Origin: a virus
Lineage: Duplodnaviria; Heunggongvirae; Uroviricota; Caudoviricetes
IMG/VR virus record: IMGVR_UViG_2526164662_000021
Location: 32,001 to 96,000 of that record
Reading direction: 5' to 3' (one strand)
Length of the DNA stretch: 64,000 bases
Shown here piece after piece: positions 11,291 through 58,510 of the stretch; the first letter of the stretch is position 1, and the number at the start of each line of letters is the position of its first letter. Made by a program: the position numbers and the translations under genes. Under the pieces are notes generated by a model. It saw only the letters and a list, made by a program, of their open reading frames with translations, did not search any database and had not been told where the DNA came from.

Positions 11291-11422
11291 TTAATAGTCA
11301 TTGATCGCAAAGGCGTAAACTTGCCAAAGGTATTTCGTATAATCGGTACAAATCTCCTTTACGCTTGATGCTGCATTAACAGTCCCAGCCATAAATAATA
11401 ACGATAGTAATAGTTTTCTCAT
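11291..11422 (-). CDS. Small secreted peptide (sim locus, 43 aa)
   Basis: ATG at 11420-11422 (reverse complement) with GGTGAGG RBS; translation MRKLLLSLLFMAGTVNAASS...; stop overlaps next start (TAATCCATG). Confidence 0.35.
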   Translation of the reverse strand: MRKLLLSLLFMAGTVNAASSVKEICTDYTKYLWQVYAFAINDY

Positions 11423-11518
11423 TATAACCTCACCTGCCTTATAACCCATTTAGGGTACATATTTTCGCCTTTAAAAAAAAGAGGTTATTAGATCCAATTG
11501 TGTATTTATTAAGCAGAT

Positions 11519-11535
11519 AATGCTCTAATAAATTT
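11519..11535 (+). promoter_or_regulatory. C1-repressor operator-like 17-mer (immI)
   Basis: AATGCTCTAATAAATTT, 16/17 to the P1 C1 operator consensus ATTGCTCTAATAAATTT. Confidence 0.65.
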
Positions 11536-11734
11536 GTATTTTTAAGTCACGAATGCTATCTTTTCGCATCATATTGACCTTTTAATCGTTCAGGCTTATA
11601 GTTCCGCCGTCGTAGCAAATTCTGCGACCGGGTTTAGCAGCCTGAATGATTGTGCGGACAGCCGCAGATATCCGATATTGCGGTATTTTTGTGTCCGTAA
11701 AACCGCGTTACGCCCAAATTATGGTGGGGCGTGA

Positions 11735-11795
11735 TGGGGAGGCTTCGGCCTGCTGGTTTCACAATCGCCAGTCTGCTAACCCCGTCACGTCCTGC
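11735..11795 (+). ncRNA. c4-like antisense RNA element (candidate)
   Basis: TTCACAATC (11758-11766) and CTGCTAACC (11773-11781) are reverse-complementary to GTTTAGCAG (11801-11809) and GATTGTGA (11832-11839, overlapping the icd RBS GAGG), in antiparallel order. Confidence 0.4.
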
Positions 11796-14104: not shown

Positions 14105-14950
14105 ATGCTGGCTAAAGTCACTTTCCTGAGCTGTATAACGATGAGCGATTTTACTTTTTCTGGCTATGAATTGGCCTGCTTTGTAACACACTCCGGTCTA
14201 TCCCGTAGCGCCGGGCATATCCTGTCGCAATGTGCAAATCTCGCGGCAACAACCAGTGAATACTTCATTCACAAGCCTCACCGCCTGCTCGCGGCAGAAA
14301 CTGGTTATAGCCAATCAACCGTCGTTCGTGCATTCCGTGAAGCTGTAAACAAAGGAATCCTGTCTGTAGAGATTGTTATCGGCGATCACCGTGAACGTCG
14401 CGCTAACCTGTACCGGTTTACACCATCCTTTTTGGCCTTCGCACAACAAGCCAAAAATGCGCTGATTGAAAGCAAATTAAAGATCTCTTCAGCGGCAACC
14501 AAGGTTAAAGCTGTTCTCGCTAAGACATTGGCTTTATTTAATTTTTTATCCACACCCCCATGTCAAAATGATACCCCCTCCCCCTGTCAGGATGACGTGG
14601 CAATAAAGAATAAGAAGTCACAAGTTAAAAAAACAAAAAGATCAGTTTCCGGCGGTGCCGGAACGACCAGACTCAAAAAATTGACTTCATGGATCGCTGA
14701 GGCAAAAGCAAAGGCTGACAATCTGCGGTTATCCAAAAAACGCGCTCAAAAACATGAGTTCAAGCAGAAAGTAGAGGCGGCAGCGCGGAAATATGCTTAC
14801 CTGAAGGACAAGCGTTCTCCTGATATTGGCGGGATATCAAACTTCGATAATCTGCCGCATTGCATGACGGTAAACGAAGCTCTTAATGCGGTTTTAGCCA
14901 AAAATAAAGATAACGAACAATGGGGTATACCGGCAGGATTCAGAGGGTGA
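14105..14950 (+). CDS. repL: Lytic replication protein RepL-like
   Basis: 281 aa, same length as P1 RepL; directly downstream of kilA; HTH-like region (YSQSTVVRAFREAVNKGIL). Confidence 0.65.
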   Translation: MLAKVTFLSCITMSDFTFSGYELACFVTHSGLSRSAGHILSQCANLAATTSEYFIHKPHRLLAAETGYSQSTVVRAFREAVNKGILSVEIVIGDHRERRANLYRFTPSFLAFAQQAKNALIESKLKISSAATKVKAVLAKTLALFNFLSTPPCQNDTPSPCQDDVAIKNKKSQVKKTKRSVSGGAGTTRLKKLTSWIAEAKAKADNLRLSKKRAQKHEFKQKVEAAARKYAYLKDKRSPDIGGISNFDNLPHCMTVNEALNAVLAKNKDNEQWGIPAGFRG

Positions 14951-15212
14951 TAGATTGCTCTAATCTGGAGTCACCTGGCGTTTTCAGTTTGAGGTCGGAG
15001 ATGCAATCTGATTTTTTACAGTTAGCGATCGCTTTTGCAGGGCATCTTTGAGACATATCCATATATAAAAACCCAAAGCCAGATCAAAACTTGTACTGAT
15101 AAAAACACAGCTAACCATCACAACTTGTAACGTTTATAATGAGTAAAAGAGTGATACATTGCTACTTTTACATATTTTTGACTCAATTCATGGATAGTAA
15201 TGGAGATGCATA

Positions 15213-16268
15213 ATGACTTATGCTGGCACACAAACAGCAGATAACGCCGGGGATACCATGAAATCGTATGCTATTTGGAATAATAAAGGTGGCGTAGGAA
15301 AGACCTACTTATCTTTCGCTATGGCCTGTGAATACGCAAGGCAAAATCCAGAAAAGCGTATTATTTTTGCAGATATGTGTCCGCAGGCTAACTTATCTGA
15401 AATATTGCTCGGCGGTAACGGTACTGGTGCTGCTAACCTCGCGAGCTTAATTCAACAACGAAAAACTGTCGGTGGGTACTTTGACAGAAGAACTCGCAGC
15501 CCCCACATGCTTACCGGTTCAGAAACAAGTTTCTTAATTCATGTCTCTGAAATTAACGGGCATGTCCCTGACAATGTATTTTTGATTGCAGGCGACCCAA
15601 GCCTGGAAGTTCAGGCGCAAGTAATCAATCAGTTAAGCAGCGTAAACTTACCAGTTGACTCATGGAAAAGCATCCACCTGTGGCTACGAGATTTGCTTGT
15701 TGCATGTGCACAACAACAAGGTATCGAAGAAACCATTTGCTTTATTGATTGCAACCCCAGTTTCTCTGCCTATACCGAACTATCACTGATAGCAGCAAAT
15801 GCAATTATAATACCTTGCTCAAGTGATGGTTCTTCGGCTCGAGCAGTGGATAACCTAAGCCAGTTGGTTTATGGCGTTGGAGTACAAAACGATTATCGTT
15901 CTGTTAACTTTTACGATCGGTGTCAACAGTTTGGTCTAGCGGTTCCTGTCATTCATTCTCTAGTTTTTAATCGTTCGACAGAGTATGACAAACGAGCAAG
16001 TAAAGCGTTTTCGGCAATGTTCGACGAAATCAGGGATAGAGCTGAAAATCTGCGGACGAATAAACCAACAGCGTTCCAAGGCGGAAATTTAAAAACGTTT
16101 ACTGTGCCAGATAACCATTCCGTAGCTATAGTATCTTCCCATCTAGGAAGACCTCTATTTGATATAAAACCCGGCAGATATCAGATCCATGACACTGAGC
16201 CACAAATCAATAATGAACCATTAGAAAGATATGGTGCAGCAATTGAACGTCTTGTTCAGAGTTTATAG
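15213..16268 (+). CDS. Orphan ParA/MinD-family P-loop ATPase
   Basis: Deviant Walker A AIWNNKGGVGKT; ParA-like FADMCPQAN and Walker B-like FIDCNPSFS; alternative start at 15258 (MKSYAIW...); no adjacent ParB. Confidence 0.6.
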   Translation: MTYAGTQTADNAGDTMKSYAIWNNKGGVGKTYLSFAMACEYARQNPEKRIIFADMCPQANLSEILLGGNGTGAANLASLIQQRKTVGGYFDRRTRSPHMLTGSETSFLIHVSEINGHVPDNVFLIAGDPSLEVQAQVINQLSSVNLPVDSWKSIHLWLRDLLVACAQQQGIEETICFIDCNPSFSAYTELSLIAANAIIIPCSSDGSSARAVDNLSQLVYGVGVQNDYRSVNFYDRCQQFGLAVPVIHSLVFNRSTEYDKRASKAFSAMFDEIRDRAENLRTNKPTAFQGGNLKTFTVPDNHSVAIVSSHLGRPLFDIKPGRYQIHDTEPQINNEPLERYGAAIERLVQSL

Positions 16269-16293
16269 TGGCTTATCTCAGTCATAATGGCTG

Positions 16294-16329
16294 AAAAAAG
16301 GCTGCAACAGAGGTTGCAGCCTTTTTTAT
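16294..16329. terminator. Bidirectional terminator between convergent genes
   Basis: AAAAAGGCTGCAAC-agag-GTTGCAGCCTTTTTT. Confidence 0.6.
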
Positions 16330-16338
16330 AAAATTACA

Positions 16339-16626
16339 TTAACAGATTGGTAGCGATAGTAAATTATTATTCCATCGATTGTCTGCATACGTTCTAATAA
16401 ACTGCCTTCCACCATTACCAGGATTAACGACCCCAACTTCTACACGATTACCTGCATTATCTGTTACATAGAATGTATGGAGATTATTATCAATAGCATT
16501 AATCACCTGCTCAACAGTCCATTTCCCATTGCCAGTATTAAATTGAGGACTTCCCACATGAGTAATATGCTCATGGATTGATTGCGAGCCGGAGAGGGTA
16601 ATGCAAGTAATGCGTACATCAGCCAT
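16339..16626 (-). CDS. DUF3892-like small protein
   Basis: Start MADVRITCI... with AAGGAAG RBS; motifs HITHVG, GKWTVEQVINAI, FYV, NNLLSLP recalled as DUF3892-like; the upstream extension in the ORF track is Cys-rich and probably spurious. Confidence 0.5.
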   Translation of the reverse strand: MADVRITCITLSGSQSIHEHITHVGSPQFNTGNGKWTVEQVINAIDNNLHTFYVTDNAGNRVEVGVVNPGNGGRQFIRTYADNRWNNNLLSLPIC

Positions 16627-16916
16627 ATATACTTCCTTTATTCTATAGATTATAGGAATTGTGCCGCCTAAAAAACAAACAGCACAATAACAATAAAGAA
16701 ACATACACACAACAAAAACTAACGCTATTTATTGATAGATTTGCCTGATGAATACTAGCTCTCTTTGCTACCTAGCACTCAAACAAATAACAGAAGAAAG
16801 CCCCAGATAACATTACGCGTCCGGCAAGACGCTTAACATTAATCTGAGGCCACATCTATGCTTAGCATACGTAGATTAACCCTCTCCCCTTTTAAGGGGT
16901 AAGGAATTTTTTACTG

Positions 16917-17549
16917 CTATGCCGCCTTTCCAGTTATGGATTCAGCGACCAGAACAACCCCATGCTTACTTCGATCTGGGTGTTCACTCCATATCTCGGA
17001 TTCAGGAATACTTACCCCGTCATAGCAAACACGTTCGCCGTCAAACGGGTAATACTGAGCGGCATCGGTGTCGAGGATAAACACTTTTAGCTCGGAAGAG
17101 CGACGGGCGATGTGTTGCCAAAGAGCTTTTCCACCTTCGTATTGCTCATTATCACTGAGCAAAACAACACCAGCTTTTGAGGCTACGGTTTCGTAAACAA
17201 AAGTAGCTAAACCTACATCCCGGACAGTTCCATCAACCACAATACCTTCAATCTGGGCAACATCGCTATCCTCCCAAAACTTCCTTACCAGTACGCCTTC
17301 AAGCTGCGGACGACGTTGAAGTTCAAGAGTAGCGACAACCTTATGGCGCATATCACCATCGATAACAGAAGGCGCAGCCTCTATTACAGCTGCAAATGGG
17401 GTTTTGGAATCCCATATAACCTGGTAAAGCACACCCTGGATGGTAACTCCGTCCAGGATCGAAAATCGACGAGCGACAGTACCCGGGGAGTACGACATTG
17501 GAATCACAGCCATTTTAGAGTCCCCCTTTAACAGTACAGGCACAAACAT
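16917..17549 (-). CDS. Hypothetical protein (possible baseplate/morphogenesis)
   Basis: 210-aa ORF; probable start at internal Met (MAVIPMSY...). Confidence 0.4.
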   Translation of the reverse strand: MFVPVLLKGDSKMAVIPMSYSPGTVARRFSILDGVTIQGVLYQVIWDSKTPFAAVIEAAPSVIDGDMRHKVVATLELQRRPQLEGVLVRKFWEDSDVAQIEGIVVDGTVRDVGLATFVYETVASKAGVVLLSDNEQYEGGKALWQHIARRSSELKVFILDTDAAQYYPFDGERVCYDGVSIPESEIWSEHPDRSKHGVVLVAESITGKAA

Positions 17550-21297: not shown

Positions 21298-23007
21298 TTA
21301 CTCAGAGTCACCGGCATCAATCGTGTCGCCGCTTATAAAGTTAAGCCCGCCTTTTTTGGCCATTGTCAGCGTTACACGAGTGAAGTAATCAGCGCCGTTG
21401 CGTGGGTGCATATCGTTGATAGCCGAACCCCACAGCGTGGTACGGTTGACCAGCGCCGGAGTGGTCGGATGCTGGAACGGGATGGCCGGGACAGCATCAC
21501 CAGTCACGAAGCCTGCTTTACCCGGATTTTCATCACGGACGTAGCACAGCACATCCATCGAGCTGAACTGAATGTTCTCTGTCGTTAAGTTCTTACAAAT
21601 ACCAGCAGGTACTTCGTACACTTTCACGTTACCGAACAGGGTACCGATGTAGTGAACATACGGAGTCTGGATATAGTCTTCGGCTGGCTGGAAGAAATCC
21701 TTCGGCAACTGTTTGAAGAAAGATGCTGCATCAGCGCCAGCAAACATCCCCATCGCACCAGAAGATTTAACGCGCTCAATAATGTCGCGATATACAGTCT
21801 GGAATTTGCCACGAATGATGGTTGCCCATACATCAAAGGACTGGTTAACCGGCAGAGCGATGTCAAAGGTGTCGGTCGCAAGAGTACGCCAGATCATGAT
21901 GCGGAGACGCAACATATCCTGTTCATGGGACAGGTATTCTTTCAGGGTGCGGAACTGTAGGGAACCCAGGTCCAGACCAAATTCACGCTGTGCTTCATAC
22001 GCCGCCTGTACCGTGTGCTCAGCCGCGATAACGAACTGGCTTGGGAACAGGGTGTATTTCTTCATTTCGTGGTTGATCAGCGGGATCAGCTCAGGAGCGG
22101 CTTCAATATTGATTTCCGTCTCAATTGCGATCTCAGTGCCTTTATCCGGCGCTTTGGAGAACGACAGGGCAATCTGACCAATGTTGTAGTTCAGAGAGCA
22201 AGTAACAGTGATTTGCTCACCAGCAGCATTAGTAAACGAGTGAAGTAGGCTGCCGGAACCGTTATCAACAACAGACTTAATACGGTTAACGTAGATGTTA
22301 GTGCGACCTTTTCGGATTGGTACATTCTGGCCTTCGAAGTCTTCCATCTTGAAGGTTGCGGTTTTGCTGGTGCCATCGGAGCTTGCCACCAGCACATAGC
22401 GGCGGCGTAACTGGCTGTACACACCGACGGATTGCATGTCCAGAACATCACCAGCAGCATAAGAACCAAAAGAGGAACCTGCCACGTTAAAGACTTCATA
22501 GATGTCGGACTGGTCACGCGTAACCGGAATGAAGGTACACGCATCAGCGGTAGCTGCCCCCAACTGAACAGGCAGGATCATCGCGAGGAATAAAGGCAGA
22601 CGCATAACACCGTCAGAAACGCTCATCATCTCTGCTGCGACGGATTCCAGCATCGCTTTATTAGTGGCATCCATGCTATTGCGGGTGGACTCAATCAGGC
22701 AGTTTTCCAGCGTCTGGTGGCAGGAGGCCAGAATTTCCGGACGCGGCATAGATTTATGTGCTGCGGCGTAGTCAGCCAGTGAACTTGCCCACGCTGTAGC
22801 GATTTGAGCGGTGGCATTATCAGAGATACCCGCAAAAACCGGGTCTTTACGTGCAGCTTCAAGGATAGATGCGGCACGCGCGGCATCATCTTTAATGAAT
22901 TGGTTATCAGTACCGAACTGCGCAGTGCTTGCCCAGCCAAGCACAGCTTTAGAGCGTTTTGCGATATCTGCAATACGATTCTGGTATTCGCGTAAGTTAC
23001 TCAATTT
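21298..23007 (-). CDS. Large virion structural protein (putative major head protein)
   Basis: ORF open to 23025 with TTG codons at 23025 and 23007; AAGGAAG RBS favours the TTG at 23007; first gene downstream of a late-promoter-like motif. Confidence 0.45.
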   Translation of the reverse strand, partial: KLSNLREYQNRIADIAKRSKAVLGWASTAQFGTDNQFIKDDAARAASILEAARKDPVFAGISDNATAQIATAWASSLADYAAAHKSMPRPEILASCHQTLENCLIESTRNSMDATNKAMLESVAAEMMSVSDGVMRLPLFLAMILPVQLGAATADACTFIPVTRDQSDIYEVFNVAGSSFGSYAAGDVLDMQSVGVYSQLRRRYVLVASSDGTSKTATFKMEDFEGQNVPIRKGRTNIYVNRIKSVVDNGSGSLLHSFTNAAGEQITVTCSLNYNIGQIALSFSKAPDKGTEIAIETEINIEAAPELIPLINHEMKKYTLFPSQFVIAAEHTVQAAYEAQREFGLDLGSLQFRTLKEYLSHEQDMLRLRIMIWRTLATDTFDIALPVNQSFDVWATIIRGKFQTVYRDIIERVKSSGAMGMFAGADAASFFKQLPKDFFQPAEDYIQTPYVHYIGTLFGNVKVYEVPAGICKNLTTENIQFSSMDVLCYVRDENPGKAGFVTGDAVPAIPFQHPTTPALVNRTTLWGSAINDMHPRNGADYFTRVTLTMAKKGGLNFISGDTIDAGDSE

Positions 23008-23055
23008 ACTCTTCCTTAAACACAAGGCACTTGTGTGAATCCCTTTTCGGAAGAG

Positions 23056-23071
23056 ATTTTATTGAAAGTCA
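23056..23071 (-). promoter_or_regulatory. Late-promoter-like motif TGACT-N5-TAAAAT
   Basis: Minus-strand TGACTTTCAATAAAAT about 30 bp upstream of the ORF start; embedded in an inverted repeat GAAAGTCA-cttg-TTGACTTTC. Confidence 0.45.
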
Positions 23072-23139
23072 CTTGTTGACTTTCTCGTGACAAGCAATTT
23101 TTTTATTTTTTTCGGGAGTAGGGGAGGAAGGTAAAATCC

Positions 23140-23228
23140 AAGGTGAAATCGTGGCGATTTCACCTTGAAATTTTAGAGGGATTTACTTTAAAAACAGTAG
23201 TTTAATAGTGAAATTTGAATGGCGAAAG
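23140..23228. promoter_or_regulatory. parS partition site (P1-type box A/box B with A-T-rich IHF-like centre)
   Basis: Heptamers ATTTCAC and hexamers TCGCCA on both sides of an AT-rich spacer (GTGAAATCGTGGCGATTTCAC ... TAGTGAAATTTGAATGGCGA), directly downstream of parB. Confidence 0.75.
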
Positions 23229-23229
23229 T

Positions 23230-24231
23230 TTAAGGCTTCGGCTTTTTATCGAGGCTCTTTCTAAGGATATGCCCAATCATCCTGTCGAGTTCTTCCTGTA
23301 GCTCTTTTGAAAGTCGATTAAACTCATAAGAAAATGCACGGCCTTTCACGCGCTTCCTTGCAAAGCGATCCTTGTCCTCAAATTTCCATAATTCAGTAAC
23401 TACGGACTTATCTTTAGAACCTTTATCCGTGAGTAGTGAGGCTTCCTTTGTTATCAAGCGCAGGATTTTATTTTTAACTTCATCTTCGGCCATTTCTTCA
23501 ATGGATAAGATGTCGTTTATTTCCGGGGATATATTTTGAATAAGCTGATCAAACTCTAAATTCTTGTTCCCCATTTCGTCGCCAACAGCACAAAGCGTTT
23601 TGTAGTCCGAAAAGGTTAATTCCGACTGCACAGGGAAAAGGGCGACTAATTCTTCCGGAGCACTCGCTGCCTGGAGAGCACGCGTGACCTTCGCCTGAGA
23701 CAGCCCTTCTTTGGCTGCAATATCCTTCTGACTCATCCCATCATTTTTCATTCGCATCAAACGCAGACCTATTTCTCGAATGCTGTGCTGCAATGCTGTC
23801 TGAACGTCTTTCGCTAAATTTTGCGCTTCCTGAACGCTGATCTCCTGGTCCGTGACTAAAACCCGCAACCCTACGTTCTCTAAGATGGCAGAAGCTCGAC
23901 GCCGGGAACCATCCAAAATTTCAATTTTCCCTGTTGCCCGTCTAACACCTATTGCAGGGTAAAATTGCTGATGCTTAATAGTGCTTCGGATACTTTTTAA
24001 TGATTTTGGCGTAAGAGATGCCTGGTCACGCCCGTTGTTATGCTGATCAACAAAGGTATCGCTTTCTACCTGGTTCGGAGGTATTACCTCTTCAATAAAT
24101 GTGGCCTGGCGACCAGTTGATAACTTGAATACCTGCTCGACTCGATCGCCAGAGGCTGAAGAACTATCAAATCCGCTTAATATTGAAGGATTAAGGGTTC
24201 GCCCAATTGTTGGTCTGTTTTTCTTTGACAT
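23230..24231 (-). CDS. parB: Partition protein ParB
   Basis: 333-aa ORF (MSKKNRPTIGRTLNPS...), downstream of parA and upstream of parS; HTH region GLSQAKVTRALQ; length as recalled for P1 ParB. Confidence 0.9.
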   Translation of the reverse strand: MSKKNRPTIGRTLNPSILSGFDSSSASGDRVEQVFKLSTGRQATFIEEVIPPNQVESDTFVDQHNNGRDQASLTPKSLKSIRSTIKHQQFYPAIGVRRATGKIEILDGSRRRASAILENVGLRVLVTDQEISVQEAQNLAKDVQTALQHSIREIGLRLMRMKNDGMSQKDIAAKEGLSQAKVTRALQAASAPEELVALFPVQSELTFSDYKTLCAVGDEMGNKNLEFDQLIQNISPEINDILSIEEMAEDEVKNKILRLITKEASLLTDKGSKDKSVVTELWKFEDKDRFARKRVKGRAFSYEFNRLSKELQEELDRMIGHILRKSLDKKPKP

Positions 24232-52340: not shown

Positions 52341-52420
52341 ACTGGCCTGAAGCATTCGCAACGGTAGGAATTGTGATGGCGGCAGCACTGGGTTTGTATT
52401 CAATTTGTCGCTGGTGGTAA
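52337..52420 (+). CDS. Small hydrophobic peptide (27 aa)
   Basis: MNWPEAFATVGIVMAAALGLYSICRWW; start overlaps upstream stop (ATGA). Confidence 0.25.
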   Translation: MNWPEAFATVGIVMAAALGLYSICRWW

Positions 52421-52656
52421 CGATGGGAAAATTAACTTTTGTTGTTGAATTTGAGGATGGTAAAGAGCCACCTGTTAGCGCCAATCTTGATGTTGCTGGT
52501 GGCAGGCTTGTTTCGGTTCTATTTGGTGACTACCGAGATGATTTCTTCCAACCAGAAGAAGTTGATGTAGTGCGAGAAGCATTAAATGAGCTAAGTGTTG
52601 ACAACGATGATGCTCATGCGGAAATCATCCAAAAAATGGAACTGCTAACTCACTAA
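52405..52656 (+). CDS. Small acidic protein (hypothetical)
   Basis: 83-aa ORF. Confidence 0.3.
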   Translation: MSLVVTMGKLTFVVEFEDGKEPPVSANLDVAGGRLVSVLFGDYRDDFFQPEEVDVVREALNELSVDNDDAHAEIIQKMELLTH

Positions 52657-52704
52657 ATTATCAATTATGGTGCTATCACCTACGACAACGAGAGAAATTT
52701 TATA

Positions 52705-52827
52705 ATGTCAAAAGTAAATGTTTTGATTTTTTCAGTAATTGTAGGTTTTGGTTTTTCTGCTGGAGTGCATATTTATATTACGTGGGGAAAAATCATCAAC
52801 TACGTATGGAGTTGTTTTATTAAGTGA
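52705..52827 (+). CDS. Small hydrophobic peptide (40 aa), AT-rich
   Basis: MSKVNVLIFSVIVGFGFSAGVHIYITWGKIINYVWSCFIK; single predicted TM helix; not in the supplied ORF track (below size cut-off). Confidence 0.3.
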   Translation: MSKVNVLIFSVIVGFGFSAGVHIYITWGKIINYVWSCFIK

Positions 52828-52835
52828 GGTAAGTA

Positions 52836-53128
52836 TGTGGAGAGGTAATAGTCATGGCAGAAGCCAGATGATACTTACCGAATATCATTTCGACCACAAA
52901 ACCAATAAATCACGCTCAGTATATTTGCTCCGACACAATAGCCGCGTAAGGAATACCGTGCTGGAGCAAAATCTGACCGTTGAAATGGATAATTACGGTG
53001 GCTTCAAGCCAACAATTTCGCTTGATGATTTTCCTCGTGGTTTAAGCGAAAGAGAAGCAATGCTGAAATTAGCAGAATGGCTACAAAGATTAAGCATTGC
53101 TATTGAAGATAACTGGTCTGAACCTTAA
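52836..53128 (+). CDS. Hypothetical protein
   Basis: ATG at 52836 preceded by GAGGTAAGT RBS; the ORF-track start at 52748 is probably an over-extension. Confidence 0.4.
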
Positions 53129-53134
53129 ATTCAT

Positions 53135-53494
53135 ATGATGACATTCAAACATTTTCTTGACCGCCCATTATGGGCGGCAGCCGCAGGCTATAACTTTAAT
53201 TATATGGATTGCATGTCTTATACCGCCAATGCATACGACCATTCGTTCAGCCTGCTGTTTAATTCTTTAAGAATATTGCCGCAAACAGAAGTTGGAGAGC
53301 TTCATTTATGGCTATTGGGCTTTATCGCGGCTGTCGTTGGTGTTGCTGTATGGCCTTTTATTTTTTGGCTGGTGGCTGTTGTAGTGTGGTTTAAGTGCAA
53401 GGCATACCGGAAAAAGTATTTCTTAGGTGATGGAATGACTGATATTGCCAAAATAAACATTGAAAAATGGACTAAGGAATGTGAAAAGAAATGA
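53135..53494 (+). CDS. Membrane protein (hypothetical)
   Basis: 119 aa with hydrophobic segment LWLLGFIAAVVGVAVWPFIFWLVAVVVWF. Confidence 0.4.
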   Translation: MMTFKHFLDRPLWAAAAGYNFNYMDCMSYTANAYDHSFSLLFNSLRILPQTEVGELHLWLLGFIAAVVGVAVWPFIFWLVAVVVWFKCKAYRKKYFLGDGMTDIAKINIEKWTKECEKK

Positions 53495-53973
53495 CCAGAA
53501 TCACTGAAGAACGCATATCGGAGATTATCGCCCGTATTGAAATGTATGGTCACGGTGCTGGATATACGGCAGATAAAGTATTGGAAATAGCCCAGCAGAT
53601 GCTGGCCTTGAGACAAAAAGAGCAACATGAAAGTAATACATGTAGATTGAATTTTGAGCAGTGGCTGGAACAGCAACGCGGAAAAATCGATGTGGACTGT
53701 GGTTGTGTGTCCACTGAAACATTCATGCACTGGTTGCGGGTAGCTTACGAGGCTGGCAACTATCCGGATAGTTCGGAGCAAGCGCCAGGAAATGGCGTCC
53801 CCGGCGAACGTATACGAATTAAGCCGCATGTTTACCGCGAACTGGTTAACCGTCTCCACGATACAGCTATCAAGTGTGCTGGCACCCAGCAATTACGAGA
53901 AAGAATTAGCCGTGTTTTGGGCGACGTTATTACGCCAGATCATCATAAACAAGCCGAGAAAAGTGGCCTGTAA
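53491..53973 (+). CDS. Hypothetical protein
   Basis: 160-aa ORF coupled to the upstream gene. Confidence 0.4.
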   Translation: MTRITEERISEIIARIEMYGHGAGYTADKVLEIAQQMLALRQKEQHESNTCRLNFEQWLEQQRGKIDVDCGCVSTETFMHWLRVAYEAGNYPDSSEQAPGNGVPGERIRIKPHVYRELVNRLHDTAIKCAGTQQLRERISRVLGDVITPDHHKQAEKSGL

Positions 53974-54180
53974 AGGTGTCACCTTGAGGCGGCATTAAAC
54001 ATTAACCCGGGGCATACGCTTGGCATTATTGATGCACTATTGGTTCATAAGATGGCCAGGGCTTTATTGCCGCTGGTAGGGGGCAATGACAACTAGGAAA
54101 AAATCGCATTACTGGTGGCAAAGCCATAACTACTGATACAATATTTCTAGGTTAAAGATCTGGCATTAGGTAGAGATAGC

Positions 54181-54645
54181 ATGTTTCTTCATATCAATCC
54201 CGATTGGGCATCAGCTATTGCGGCATTTGGGTCAGCAATAGCTGCTTTTATTAGTTTGCGCACAAGTAAAAAGCTTGGATTATTCGATAAGGAAAAATTT
54301 TATAGTGAAGCATTGATAAACTTTGCTGATAGGGCAAATAAAATAGCAACAGGAAAAGCTGGATCAGACTGGGATGTTAATGACGCAAGTAATATAATTC
54401 TTTCACTAAATGCCGCAAAAGAAACTATTGAAAGTGCGCCAAAACCTATTCGAGAGCAACTAAAACAATATTACAAACATAATCTTTGCCATGAGATCAT
54501 AACCGAATTAGAGGCTCACTCTCCCCCAGATTCAGTAATTGTAAGAGAACCATCAGAGTATGAAGGCAAGATCATGGGATTGTGGGATGAGATTAAAATA
54601 TTTCTGGGTTATACAGTGGTATCAGAAGCAGACCTTGAAGATTAA
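54181..54645 (+). CDS. AT-rich membrane-anchored protein (hypothetical)
   Basis: 154 aa; N-terminal TM helix (WASAIAAFGSAIAAFISL); markedly lower GC than flanks; directly upstream of phd-doc. Confidence 0.45.
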   Translation: MFLHINPDWASAIAAFGSAIAAFISLRTSKKLGLFDKEKFYSEALINFADRANKIATGKAGSDWDVNDASNIILSLNAAKETIESAPKPIREQLKQYYKHNLCHEIITELEAHSPPDSVIVREPSEYEGKIMGLWDEIKIFLGYTVVSEADLED

Positions 54646-54789
54646 AGTTTGGTGTGACCACATCATTTCATCAATGATGCCCGAAGTGGGGAGTTTGACG
54701 ATTGTCCGGTGATTTAAGCTGCAAAGTGCTGGTGCTTTATGCTTGTGAAGTTTATAATTGTGTACACATAACGAGTACACGAGGTGTTT

Positions 54790-55011
54790 ATGCAATCCAT
54801 TAACTTCCGTACCGCACGCGGCAACCTTAGCGAAGTGCTCAATAATGTCGAAGCAGGGGAAGAGGTTGAAATCACCCGCAGAGGCCGTGAATCAGCCGTA
54901 ATTGTCAGCAAGGCCACTTTCGAAGCCTATAAAAAAGCGGCGCTGGATGCCGAATTTGCATCCCTGTTTGACACTCTGGACTCCACTAACAAGGAACTGG
55001 TTAACCGATAA
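54790..55011 (+). CDS. phd: Antitoxin Phd (Phd/YefM family)
   Basis: [34 protein letters not shown]...STNKELVNR; 73 aa; stop overlaps doc start. Confidence 0.9.
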
Positions 55012-55391
55012 TGAGGCATATATCACCGGAAGAACTTATTGCGCTTCATGATGCGAATATAAGCCGCTACGGCGGCCTGCCGGGCATGTCAGATCCGGGC
55101 AGGGCAGAAGCCATTATCGGGAGAGTTCAGGCCAGAGTTGCCTACGAAGAGATCACCGACCTTTTCGAAGTCTCCGCCACCTACCTAGTGGCTACAGCGA
55201 GAGGGCATATATTCAATGATGCCAATAAGCGTACCGCGCTAAACAGCGCGCTGCTATTTCTACGCCGTAACGGGGTGCAGGTATTTGATTCACCTGAACT
55301 GGCAGACCTTACTGTAGGGGCTGCGACTGGCGAGATATCTGTATCTTCTGTCGCCGACACGTTACGTAGATTGTATGGTTCTGCGGAGTAG
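55011..55391 (+). CDS. doc: Toxin Doc (Fic-fold kinase)
   Basis: 126 aa; Fic-like motif [11 protein letters not shown]. Confidence 0.9.
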
Positions 55392-56647: not shown

Positions 56648-56664
56648 ATTGCTCTAATGTATTG
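56648..56664 (+). promoter_or_regulatory. Weak C1 operator-like 17-mer upstream of lpa-like gene
   Basis: ATTGCTCTAATGTATTG (13/17). Confidence 0.35.
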
Positions 56665-57189: not shown

Positions 57190-58510
57190 GCTCCCCGCCC
57201 GGTTGGGCGAGGCTTCCCACATCTCAGGCCGCAACCGTCTGTACGACGGATTTACGCTGGCCTCCATGGGCAGAGACGACGAGTCCCGCCGCCTTTAGTT
57301 CCAGTATCCCTTTTTGCCGGATGTTGAGTGCCGCATTGATATCGCGGTCATGCTCTGCTTCACATTCAGGGCATCGCCAGATGCGTTTATGAAGCGGCAT
57401 TTCCGGCATTTTGTAACCACAACAATGGCACGTTTTCGAACTGGCAAACCACTGGTCGAGTTTTACCAGGTGAACGCCTTTTTCCGCTGCCTTGTACTCC
57501 AGCTTTGTGATGAAGCTATGCCAGCCTGCATCACCTATTGCTCTTGCCAGATTGTGGTTTTTCATCATGTTGGCTGTTTTCAGCGTCTCGACAATTACCG
57601 CTTGGTTTTCGTCAACAATTGTACGAGAAAGTTTATGTTGAAAATCAGCACGGGCATTCGCTACCCGTTCGTGTATGGCCGCAAGACGGATTCTGGCCTT
57701 TTTACGATTCGCGCTTCCCTTTTGCTTGCGGGATAGCGCTTTTTGTTTGCGTCGCAGATTACGGCTGGCATTGATGAGATGGCGGGGATTCGCAATTTTT
57801 GCCCGGTCAGACCTGATGGCATAGTGCTCAAGTCCCATATCCACACCAGTAATCTTTTCTTCCTCCAGATACGCAGGTTTCGCTGGTGTGGGAATACCGT
57901 CTTCACAAAGGATGGATGCGTAGTATTTCCCGGTGGCACTGCGAGTGATTGTTATGCTCGTCACTTTTCCCGTCATTACACGGTGTATACGCGCTTCTAT
58001 CGGTGCCAGCTTAGGAATTTTGATGGCATTCTCCAGTACTTTAATCCCGACACAATGGTAGCTCGATTGTTTCCCATGTTTACGTTTAAACGTCGGGAAC
58101 CGGGCTTTCAGCTTCGGATTAAAAAAGTTGGAAAACGCCACATCAAGATTAATCACCGCCTGTTGCAATGCCATTGAATCAAATTCTTTAAGCCAGGCAT
58201 ACTTACGGGACTTCTTCGCCACAGACAACAACGGTTTTAAATCTTTACGCGGACTTAAATTCACTCCGTGTCGCTGGTAAGCGTGTTTTTTGATGTGAAG
58301 AGCTTTGTTGTACGCAAAACGCACGGCGCCGAACTGGGCGTTGAGATACTCAGCCTGTTTAGTGGTTGGATAGATGCGTACTTTTGTCGCTCTTAACATA
58401 GTCACCGCTCATTGATACAGGTTTTTATGCTAACACCGTAATGATTTTTTTTTAAAGCCCTGTGGGCTTTCCCGCCTTTCCTCCCCGCCCGCATTGGGCG
58501 AGGGTTCTCG
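57190..58510 (-). mobile_element. IS200/IS605-family tnpB-only element
   Basis: tnpB flanked by direct copies of a hairpin-containing ~23-bp sequence: CTCCCCGCCCGGTTGGGCGAGG (57191-57212) and CTCCCCGCCCGCATTGGGCGAGG (58481-58503); no tnpA. Confidence 0.6.
57224..58405 (-). CDS. tnpB: TnpB (IS605 OrfB family, RuvC-like nuclease with C-terminal zinc finger)
   Basis: 393 aa; N-terminal MLRATKVRIYPTTKQ; C-terminal CHCCG...CPEC zinc finger and DRDINAALNI RuvC-III-like motif. Confidence 0.8.
   Translation of the reverse strand: MTMLRATKVRIYPTTKQAEYLNAQFGAVRFAYNKALHIKKHAYQRHGVNLSPRKDLKPLLSVAKKSRKYAWLKEFDSMALQQAVINLDVAFSNFFNPKLKARFPTFKRKHGKQSSYHCVGIKVLENAIKIPKLAPIEARIHRVMTGKVTSITITRSATGKYYASILCEDGIPTPAKPAYLEEEKITGVDMGLEHYAIRSDRAKIANPRHLINASRNLRRKQKALSRKQKGSANRKKARIRLAAIHERVANARADFQHKLSRTIVDENQAVIVETLKTANMMKNHNLARAIGDAGWHSFITKLEYKAAEKGVHLVKLDQWFASSKTCHCCGYKMPEMPLHKRIWRCPECEAEHDRDINAALNIRQKGILELKAAGLVVSAHGGQRKSVVQTVAA

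What the first reader, a model, noticed from the sequence alone, without database searches (positions are those of the whole stretch)
54181..54645. AT-rich membrane-anchored gene immediately upstream of phd-doc
A 154-aa ORF with an N-terminal TM helix has clearly lower GC than its surroundings and sits where I recall P1 carrying humD, directly before the phd-doc addiction module. Low-GC single genes with membrane anchors next to toxin-antitoxin loci are often abortive-infection or exclusion determinants.
Basis: partly seen in the sequence, partly recalled or inferred. Interest (0 to 1): 0.45.

Follow-up and report, generated by a model that had tools for sequence, protein, structure and literature searches.

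The report
Orphan membrane gene replacing P1 humD
A small AT-rich gene for a membrane-tethered helical protein of unknown function has replaced the hot-lxr-humD genes just upstream of phd-doc in this P1-like phage-plasmid; it is a real, mobile accessory gene of temperate phages and a fair but untested candidate for phage exclusion.

Summary
ORF 54181-54645 (154 aa) is real and AT-poor in GC (0.37, GC3 0.25; window 0.47). It sits where P1 carries humD.

It lies in a 570-bp cassette (54078-54647). The cassette replaced hot-lxr-humD and left 17 humD codons.

Only about 1% of phd-bearing plasmids or E. coli genomes carry it. All carriers seen are P1-like, within the published "variable region 8".

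The protein is WP_001697568.1, "hypothetical", and matches phrog_1779 (unknown function). The family is small and confined to Enterobacterales, and every examined context is a temperate phage or prophage.

Relatives sit in early-operon accessory regions: the nin region (sometimes 14 nt after hot), the PL region near int, and this P1 slot. None of the relatives examined is next to phd-doc, so that adjacency is incidental.

Family features:
- an Ala/Gly/Ser-rich N-terminal transmembrane helix, marginal in this copy;
- charge bias indicating N-out/C-in topology;
- a confidently modelled cytoplasmic helical domain with no informative fold, Pfam, NCBIfam, PDB or PADLOC match.

Function is unknown. 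My best guess is membrane-level exclusion or abortive infection (about 0.35). The main rival is an early lytic host-takeover or anti-defence role (about 0.28).

The parts
54078..54647 (+). 570-bp variable cassette. It contains the last 6 codons plus stop of the upstream gene, an 84-bp spacer and the 154-aa ORF, and it ends 2 nt after the ORF stop. It is absent from P1, P7, RCS47, pUTAK-13-1 and p99_1145-4.
   Evidence: blastn breakpoints at 54077/54648 against five related loci; alignment of the left junction; present at >=99% identity in only 9 of 1189 plasmid records and 10 of 1149 E. coli genomes that match the flank.
54115..54142 (+). Sigma-70-like promoter candidate inside the cassette: GTGGCA, 16-nt spacer, TACAAT with a TG-extended -10. 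The predicted start is about 30 nt before the ATG.
   Evidence: Consensus scan. The number of such sites in the region (2) is not above the shuffle expectation (4.0), so this is a candidate only.
54168..54176 (+). Purine-rich Shine-Dalgarno-like stretch AGGTAGAGA, 5-13 nt before the ATG.
   Evidence: Read directly from the sequence.
54181..54645 (+). 154-aa ORF. It differs at K31N and Q93K from WP_001697568.1 'hypothetical protein' of pS51_2, and it is a member of phrog_1779.
   Evidence: phrog_1779 E 4.7e-63 over residues 1-154; AlphaFold2 pLDDT 87.7, pTM 0.74.
54205..54258 (+). Residues 9-26, WASAIAAFGSAIAAFISL: a weakly hydrophobic helix rich in Ala/Gly/Ser (imperfect heptad duplication SAIAAFG/SAIAAFI). 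It is the putative N-out/C-in transmembrane anchor.
   Evidence: KD 1.44-1.49 here and mean 1.91 in 38 relatives; 54% Ala/Gly/Ser; K+R 0.21 in the N flank versus 3.68 in the C flank; A19, A22 and S25 nearly invariant; P0012 carries three extra TM segments whose charge pattern fits the same orientation.
54259..54642 (+). Residues 27-154: predicted cytoplasmic all-helical domain with an acidic tail (SEADLED). Conserved positions are RAN (51-53), invariant W64, W135 and F141. No catalytic-looking motif.
   Evidence: DSSP helices 7-56, 66-85, 88-101, 104-111, 126-142, 149-153, with pLDDT 87-98 over residues 31-120 and 75-94 beyond; conservation; no significant fold match.
54648..54716 (+). 3' remnant of humD (codons 113-129 of 129), where homology with P1 resumes.
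   Evidence: tblastn of P1 HumD gives only 54664-54714 at 94% identity; blastn junction. A second plasmid, pUTAK-13-1, has a chimeric ORF ending in HumD 98-129.
53491..54096 (+). Upstream pmgT/pmgU-like gene. In this window it is cut short by a GAA>TAA change at 53971-53973; intact versions end at TAG 54094-54096, inside the cassette.
54730..54758 (+). phd promoter region retained from the P1 backbone (TATAAT at 54753-54758). No terminator-like site lies between the ORF and phd.
   Evidence: Position transferred from the annotated Pphd of P1 through the alignment; sequence; terminator scan.
54790..55391 (+). phd-doc addiction module (phd 54790-55011, doc 55011-55391). It is a neighbour on the conserved backbone, not part of the cassette.
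50051..50067 (+). C1-operator-like site (ATTGCACTAATAAATAT) at the head of the co-oriented pmgT-like gene string that ends with the ORF. It marks a possible early, C1-repressed route of transcription.
   Evidence: 2 mismatches to the C1 operator sequence; 13 sites in the window versus 0.39 expected; matches OpmgT of P1 by position; pmgT homology begins at 50246.

Best explanation
Shown (confidence about 0.9): this is a real, horizontally exchanged single-gene accessory cassette. It replaced hot-lxr-humD in the hypervariable region just upstream of phd-doc in a P1-like phage-plasmid. It encodes a member of an uncharacterised, Enterobacterales-restricted family (phrog_1779) whose members, in every context examined, lie in temperate phages or prophages. 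The architecture is a short acidic N-terminus, one Ala/Gly/Ser-rich transmembrane helix, and a compact helical domain of about 125 residues with no enzyme motif.

Inferred topology: N-terminus in the periplasm, helical domain in the cytoplasm.

Inferred function (confidence about 0.35): the protein works without catalysis at the cytoplasmic face of the inner membrane. The conserved small-residue face of its membrane helix would pack against itself or against a host inner-membrane protein. The helical domain would bind a partner. The net effect would be to block or abort infection by other phages, either by superinfection exclusion at genome entry or by membrane-level abortive infection. Expression would come from the cassette's own promoter in the lysogen. 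The adjacency to phd-doc is positional only.
For: Gene reality and family:
- Relatives at 25-41% identity share a conserved pattern.
- phrog_1779 matches full length at E 4.7e-63.
- The AlphaFold2 model has pLDDT 87.7.

Replacement of humD:
- Breakpoints lie at 54077/54648, with a 17-codon humD remnant; hot, lxr and upfMNO are absent from the whole window.

Patchy distribution and foreign composition:
- About 1% of phd-bearing plasmids or genomes carry it.
- GC is 0.37 and GC3 0.25. In 8 of the 9 relative loci measured the gene is also below its surroundings; in L006 it is equal.
- The cassette is nucleotide-identical on backbones whose flanks differ.

Temperate-phage accessory regions only:
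-.

Membrane anchor and topology:
-.
- TM residues A19, A22 and S25 are nearly invariant, which argues for specific helix packing rather than mere anchoring.

Possible autonomous expression:
- A promoter-like site with an extended -10 lies inside the cassette.
- A strong intrinsic terminator lies 18 nt after the Cronobacter homologue.

Background knowledge, not tested here: many prophage exclusion and Abi proteins are small membrane proteins encoded by AT-rich morons.
Against: - No match to any PADLOC-DB defence model for this protein or its relatives, beyond scattered single-member noise.
- No defence-related Pfam or NCBIfam hit.
- No literature.
- In every context the gene is co-oriented with early lytic operons. 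In four lambdoid loci it starts 14 nt after hot, which suggests co-transcription with lytic genes rather than lysogenic expression.
- The promoter-like site is not above chance, and no terminator follows the gene here.
- A cytoplasmic bulk domain is less typical of injection blockers than a periplasmic one.
- The TM helix of this particular copy is only marginally hydrophobic.
Confidence: 0.35

Rival explanations
1. Early lytic-cycle accessory protein. It would be transcribed by read-through from early promoters (the C1-repressed pmgT-like promoter here; PR or PL in lambdoids). It would act at the inner membrane to help the phage itself, for example by neutralising a membrane-associated host defence or by modulating a host membrane process during replication.
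For: - The gene is always co-oriented within early operons. In L023-L026 it starts 14 nt after hot, downstream of Ead_Ea22 and DUF551 genes, the same gene set as the P1 region it occupies.
- A C1-operator-like site heads the co-oriented string at 50051.
- It replaces genes (hot, humD) that serve phage DNA metabolism.
- The patchy distribution fits counter-defence as well as defence.
Against: - There is no similarity to any known anti-defence protein or fold.
- The cassette carries a promoter-like site of its own.
- A terminator follows the Cronobacter homologue.
- No transcript data are available.
Confidence: 0.28
2. Lysogenic-conversion factor unrelated to phage conflict, for example one that changes envelope physiology, stress tolerance or plasmid-prophage maintenance of the host.
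For: The gene is moron-like: compositionally foreign, optional, and with a possible own promoter. It is membrane-located. It is carried in E. coli, E. albertii and E. marmotae from gut, food and water sources.
Against: There is no similarity to transporters, virulence or stress proteins. The family was found only in phages or prophages in every context examined, never in core chromosomal settings.
Confidence: 0.1
3. Lysis-timing component (holin- or antiholin-like, or a membrane-helix oligomer forming a small pore). This exploits the weakly hydrophobic, small-residue-rich helix, which is reminiscent of pinholin and SAR segments.
For: The helix is 54-58% Ala/Gly/Ser, with bulky residues confined to one stripe and marginal hydrophobicity. 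P1 uses a SAR endolysin (my knowledge).
Against: - The gene is never in a lysis cassette, and prophages carrying it have their own holin, lysozyme and Rz genes elsewhere.
- The charge bias gives the opposite orientation to SAR and i-spanin anchors.
- There are no holin or Phage_lysis Pfam hits.
Confidence: 0.07
4. Functional partner of phd-doc, such as a third component or regulator of the addiction module.
For: It lies immediately upstream with no terminator in between, so transcripts could run into phd-doc.
Against: About 99% of phd-doc loci lack it and carry humD instead. None of the family members examined outside P1-like elements has phd-doc next to it. The phd promoter region of P1 is retained intact.
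Confidence: 0.03
5. Passenger with no current function: a relic carried along by recombination in a hypervariable region.
For: It is rare. The neighbouring gene in this window carries a nonsense mutation.
Against: The reading frame is intact in every carrier seen. Among the copies compared at nucleotide level, only 3 differences in 465 nt were found (pS51_2), and the 8 contigs retrieved by exact protein identity are also nucleotide-identical. Family-wide conserved residues and a confident fold indicate purifying selection.
Confidence: 0.05

Closest known systems
PHROG family phrog_1779 (unknown function)
   Same: Full-length profile match, E 4.7e-63, residues 1-154 against profile positions 1-169 of 169. 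The protein is a member.
   Different: The family has no assigned function or category, so membership explains nothing about mechanism.
P1 humD / hot-lxr-humD interval ('variable region 8' of P1-like phage-plasmids, PMC9603915)
   Same: Same slot between the pmgU-like gene and phd, on the same strand. A humD 3' remnant marks the replacement. The region is described as highly variable and low in G+C.
   Different: There is no sequence similarity to HumD, Lxr, Hot or other occupants of the slot. There is no Peptidase_S24 domain. No LexA box lies nearby.
Morons of temperate phages (extra genes with their own promoter and terminator and deviant composition; Hendrix/Juhala concept, from my knowledge)
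   Same: It is an optional single gene between conserved neighbours, with deviant GC, a promoter-like site inside the cassette, and a terminator after one homologue.
   Different: The promoter is not validated or above chance. No terminator follows the gene in this window. Some homologues are tightly coupled to the upstream hot gene.
Small membrane-anchored prophage exclusion / abortive-infection proteins (e.g. HK97 gp15, lactococcal Sie2009, AbiP, lambda/P22 SieB, T4 Imm; recalled, not tested)
   Same: It is a small, prophage-encoded, single gene with an N-terminal membrane anchor and a non-enzymatic look.
   Different: No sequence or profile similarity was found. Pfam models at E<=0.1 returned only a sub-threshold, unrelated hit (Ribosomal_L12, E 0.025) and no exclusion-protein family; PADLOC gave nothing. 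The bulk of the protein is predicted to be cytoplasmic. No phenotype is known.
SAR / pinholin-type weakly hydrophobic membrane helices (e.g. P1 Lyz; recalled)
   Same: The membrane helix is dominated by Ala, Gly and Ser and has marginal hydrophobicity.
   Different: The charge distribution predicts N-out/C-in, the opposite orientation. There is no muralytic or holin domain, and the gene is not in a lysis cassette.

Membership tests
phrog_1779 | Significant full-length match to the family profile | tested here: met
   E 4.7e-63, 213 bits, residues 1-154 versus profile 1-169/169.
HumD / UmuD-like S24 peptidase (the usual occupant of the slot) | Peptidase_S24 domain or similarity to HumD | tested here: not met
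   No Pfam hit. blastp of the ORF against P1 HumD, Lxr, Hot and other slot proteins gives nothing at E<=10. Only a 17-codon humD remnant lies downstream.
Known anti-phage defence / Abi proteins (PADLOC-DB v2.0.0) | Match to a defence-protein HMM | tested here: not met
   0 families at E<=1 for the ORF. Across 21 family members there are only scattered weak hits, each matched by one or two members.
Moron | Present or absent between conserved neighbours in otherwise collinear relatives | tested here: met
   Breakpoints at 54077/54648; present in about 1% of relatives.
Moron | Base composition unlike the flanks | tested here: met
   GC 0.37 and GC3 0.25 versus window 0.47; 2.4th percentile.
Moron | Own promoter | tested here: inconclusive
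   GTGGCA-16-TGaTACAAT at 54115-54142, but site counts are not above shuffles. No transcript data.
Moron | Own terminator | tested here: not met
   No terminator-like site between 54645 and phd. One is present after the Cronobacter homologue, L009 8540-8557.
Single-pass inner-membrane protein (N-out/C-in) | Hydrophobic segment of about 19 residues above the usual threshold, with positive-inside charge bias | tested here: inconclusive
   This copy: KD 1.44-1.49, below 1.6. Family: mean 1.91. K+R is 0.21 in the N flank versus 3.68 in the C flank. The P0012 fusion is consistent. No dedicated TM predictor or experiment was available.
Superinfection-exclusion families in Pfam (SieB, Imm and similar) | Profile match | tested here: not met
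   hmmscan of Pfam-A at E<=0.1 returned no exclusion-protein family for the ORF or its relatives.
Superinfection exclusion / abortive infection (functional class) | Reduced plating or aborted infection of challenger phages | not testable with these tools
   Needs plaque and growth assays.
HeLo / Helo-like N membrane-disrupting domains | Profile or fold similarity | tested here: not met
i-spanin (Rz-like) | Phage_lysis profile, type II (N-in/C-out) anchor, location in a lysis cassette | tested here: not met
   No Pfam hit. The charge bias is opposite. Host prophages have a separate Phage_lysis gene.
phd-doc module (as an extra component) | Conserved co-occurrence with phd-doc | tested here: not met
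   It is absent from about 99% of phd-doc loci. Relatives in lambdoid phages lack phd-doc neighbours.

The most novel reading that the evidence does not exclude
phrog_1779 could be an unrecognised single-gene, non-enzymatic phage-exclusion or abortive-infection family of temperate Enterobacterales phages. Its conserved small-residue transmembrane helix would self-assemble or dock onto a host inner-membrane component used for genome entry. Its cytoplasmic helical domain would sense or block the incoming phage.
Probability: 0.3. Interest if true: 0.55.

Novelty: new member of a known kind. Interest (0 to 1): 0.3.

Why it matters
P1-like phage-plasmids are common in Escherichia and spread resistance genes. 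Their few variable regions are where new cargo arrives.

This work shows that the humD slot can be taken over by a mobile one-gene cassette. The same family is found in lambdoid prophages, where four loci place it right behind the hot gene, among the Ead/DUF551 genes that also fill this P1 region. That is a concrete example of module exchange between phage-plasmids and integrative phages.

If the protein proves to be an exclusion or defence factor, it would add a compact, structurally unassigned, membrane-acting family to the defence catalogue. It would also be easy to test, being 465 bp with no partner gene. If it does not, it remains one more uncharacterised accessory gene.

Tried and rejected
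Ideas tested and dropped:
- HeLo/MLKL-like pore former. This was prompted by a UniRef name on a Hafnia relative. It was rejected because Pfam gives no hit even at E<=10 and the fold searches give no such neighbours.
- i-spanin or holin. Rejected on location, topology and lack of profile hits.
- Third component of phd-doc. Rejected on distribution.
- 13-nt inverted repeat 54022-54034 / 54669-54681 as cassette ends. Both arms lie in backbone sequence shared with P1 (the pmgU-like gene and the humD remnant), outside the breakpoints, so it is probably chance.
- LexA control inherited from the lxr/humD slot. No LexA box lies within 2 kb.
- RNA element in the spacer. Only a sub-threshold snoRNA hit, which is noise.
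- Other occupants of the slot as known defence genes. None matches PADLOC.

Searches that gave nothing:
- Sequence searches stayed within a small family with no informative fusions, apart from one protein with extra TM segments.
- Profile searches of PDB sequences were empty.
- The search for related loci with the alignment failed for lack of conserved words.
- Literature look-ups for the accession, the PHROG id, the PhiR phages and the DefensePredictor supplements found nothing. The Brenes & Laub 2025 paper that described the PhiR phages is not in the library.

Full report
**What is there**

The ORF is at 54181-54645 on the + strand and encodes 154 aa. Next come phd (54790-55011) and doc (55011-55391), then pdcA- and pdcB-like genes and lpa. 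All are confirmed by Pfam hits and by 96-97% nucleotide identity to P1, P7 and RCS47.

The window is therefore a P1-like phage-plasmid. It also contains 13 C1-operator-like sites, against 0.39 expected by chance.

The ORF has GC 0.370 and GC3 0.252, against a window mean of 0.472. Only 2.4% of 465-bp windows are lower. phd and doc have GC3 of 0.53 and 0.51.

**The slot**

Homology with P1, P7, RCS47 and two other P1-like plasmids stops at 54077 and resumes at 54648.
- The left break is inside the 3' end of the pmgU-like gene. Each variant supplies its own last few codons there.
- The right break is inside humD. Only codons 113-129 remain, at 54664-54714.
- hot, lxr, upfM/N/O and pmgV are absent from the whole 64-kb window.

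A 570-bp cassette (54078-54647) has therefore replaced the P1 interval that ends with hot-lxr-humD.

Another plasmid, pUTAK-13-1, carries a different pair of small genes in the same place. One of them is a chimera ending in HumD residues 98-129. The humD 3' end is thus a recurrent recombination junction.

This interval is one of eight "highly variable regions" already described for P1-like phage-plasmids, and it was noted as low in G+C (PMC9603915).

The cassette is rare.
- 9 of 1189 plasmid records that match the flank carry it at >=99% identity.
- 10 of 1149 E. coli genomes with a match carry it.
- The plasmid and complete-genome carriers are 93-100 kb plasmids of E. coli, E. albertii and E. 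marmotae.

The exact protein is nevertheless indexed in 81 blocks of public assemblies. In every locus shown it sits next to phd-doc in P1-like surroundings.

In eight such contigs the ORF and its upstream spacer are nucleotide-identical to the window. The phd-doc flank differs by up to about 9% in an ungapped comparison. These loci were selected by protein identity, so this is only a hint of recent exchange between backbones.

**The protein family**

RefSeq annotates the pS51_2 copy, which differs from the window's protein at two residues (K31N, Q93K), as WP_001697568.1, "hypothetical protein".

It matches phrog_1779 (unknown function) over its full length at E 4.7e-63. Nothing meaningful turns up in Pfam, NCBIfam or PADLOC, either for this protein or for 20 relatives.

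An exhaustive HMMER scan of 1.84 billion representatives found only 21 relatives at E<=1e-3, with 29-41% identity. Profile searches added a few more clusters but no new architectures.

Named members come from Escherichia, Cronobacter, Enterobacter, Klebsiella, Raoultella, Citrobacter, Kluyvera, Hafnia, Pantoea and an Erwinia phage.

The alignment shows:
- a conserved N-terminal hydrophobic helix, with A19, A22 and S25 nearly invariant;
- an RAN motif and an invariant W64;
- conserved W135 and F141, and in one subgroup an acidic D-x-D-L-x-D tail.

There is no pattern suggestive of catalysis.

**Membrane anchor and topology**

In this protein the best 19-residue window scores Kyte-Doolittle 1.49, just under the classical 1.6. 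Across 38 relatives the equivalent segment averages 1.91, and about 54% of its residues are Ala, Gly or Ser.

The residues before the helix carry on average 0.21 Lys+Arg. The 15 residues after it carry 3.68. By the positive-inside rule this puts the short N-terminus outside and the helical domain in the cytoplasm.

One relative, P0012, has three additional hydrophobic segments in front. Their loop charges fit the same orientation.

In the window's protein the bulky residues (I13, F16, I20, F23, I24) form one stripe and the rest of the helix surface is small residues. I read this as a helix built for tight packing with itself or with another membrane helix. That is inference.

**Structure**

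AlphaFold2 with the 21-sequence alignment gives mean pLDDT 87.7 and pTM 0.74. The model has one long helix (residues 7-56) running from the membrane segment into a compact helical domain.
- Foldseek against the PDB and against BFVD gives nothing at E<=1e-3.
- Profile searches of PDB sequences are empty.
- The AlphaFold-database library was unavailable.

**Genomic contexts of relatives**

All relatives examined are in temperate phages or prophages, in accessory stretches of early operons and co-oriented with them.
- Escherichia phages PhiR26_1 and PhiR5_1: between rha and ninB.
- Enterobacter and Kluyvera prophages: between the replication genes O/P and the nin genes (ninE/ninG).
- Klebsiella-type prophages: in the nin region, 14 nt after a hot homologue (DNA_pol3_theta). 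In three of the four loci Ead_Ea22 and/or DUF551 genes lie upstream. This is the same gene set that fills the P1 variable region in this window and in RCS47.
- Cronobacter prophages and Erwinia phage 49: in the leftward early operon, between the recombination genes and xis/int.

None of these relatives has phd-doc beside it, and no partner gene is conserved across contexts.

In 8 of the 9 loci measured the relative is more AT-rich than its surroundings, at GC 0.41-0.44 versus 0.47-0.53; in PhiR26_1 (L006) the two are equal at 0.445 versus 0.447.

**Expression signals**

The cassette contains a sigma-70-like site with a TG-extended -10 at 54115-54142, about 40 nt before the ATG. The number of such sites in the region is not above the shuffle expectation.

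No terminator separates the ORF from phd. No LexA box is nearby. Rfam finds nothing real.

The gene also ends a 4.6-kb string of co-oriented genes that starts at a C1-operator-like site at 50051-50067.

A clean intrinsic terminator follows the Cronobacter homologue. The other homologue contexts show no consistent promoter.

Sequence alone therefore cannot say whether the gene is expressed in the lysogen, in the lytic cycle, or in both.

**Interpretation**

Firmly supported: this is a real, mobile, single-gene accessory cassette of temperate Enterobacterales phages. It displaced hot-lxr-humD and encodes a probably N-out/C-in membrane-tethered helical protein with no enzyme signature. Its position next to phd-doc is inherited from the backbone.

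Not established: what it does.

I rank a membrane-level exclusion or abortive-infection role first, at about 0.35. The reasons are its moron-like properties, patchy distribution, membrane location, stand-alone nature and conserved packing face on the helix.

An early lytic host-takeover or anti-defence role comes second, at about 0.28. The reason is the tight embedding in early operons and the coupling to hot.

Smaller shares go to lysogenic conversion, lysis timing, a phd-doc partner and a functionless passenger.

Its functional guess is plausible but untested, and its toxin-antitoxin adjacency argument is not valid.

**Novelty and score**

The gene is already in databases as a hypothetical protein and as a PHROG of unknown function. 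The hypervariable region is published.

New here are the exact anatomy of the replacement, the topology inference and the cross-phage context, including the shared Ead-DUF551-hot module. That makes it a new member of a known kind (optional accessory or moron cargo in a known hotspot), with moderate-to-low interest (0.3). It is worth a simple plating experiment because the test is cheap.

Noticed in passing
window 53971-53973: A GAA>TAA nonsense change truncates the pmgT/pmgU-like ORF (53491-53973) by 41 codons relative to pS51_2, RCS47 and P1. Intact versions end at TAG 54094-54096. Sibling contigs L016, L019 and L021 show the same 160-aa call.
   Followed up: partly
window 57224-58405 (- strand): An IS200/IS605-type TnpB gene (HTH_OrfB_IS605, OrfB_IS605, Cas12f1-like_TNB domains; 393 aa) is inserted between lpa and pacA, where P1 has the late promoter LPpac. 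It is present in some sibling plasmids (L015-L018, L021) and absent from others (L019, L022, pS51_2).
   Followed up: partly
L004 (pUTAK-13-1) 3406-3747: WP_072148937 (113 aa) is a chimera whose last 32 residues are HumD 98-129. This is a second, independent replacement with its breakpoint inside humD.
   Followed up: partly
L023, L025 and L026 about 6728-7483; L024 3291-4043: In Klebsiella/Enterobacter-type lambdoid prophages a hot (DNA_pol3_theta) gene is followed after 14 nt by a family member. In L023, L025 and L026, Ead_Ea22 and/or DUF551 genes lie upstream. This is the same gene set as P1 variable region 8, suggesting a module shared between lambdoid nin regions and P1-like elements.
   Followed up: partly
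window 50051-50067 and 56648-56664 (and 11 further sites): There are 13 C1-operator-like sites in the window versus 0.39 expected by chance. These two correspond by position to OpmgT (Op88) and Olpa (Op94) of P1.
   Followed up: no
L020 5292-8465: One carrier has the same ORF-phd-doc block followed by a different right-hand backbone (Tad2-like/DUF2829, dUTPase, integrase on the opposite strand) instead of pdcA-pdcB-lpa, as in p99_1145-4.
   Followed up: no
window 52361-53176 and other segments (9791-11736, 14821-16946, 22941-23636): These are further stretches with GC below 0.39. The one at 52.4-53.2 kb covers small genes of unknown function (phrog_1258, phrog_2638) just upstream in the same variable region.
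   Followed up: no
L006 (PhiR26_1) 2740-4242: A gene annotated PD-lambda-1 (the membrane-bound nuclease SNIPE of PMC13190303) lies about 1.7 kb from the family member, on the opposite strand and separated from it by rha. There is no sign of linkage.
   Followed up: no
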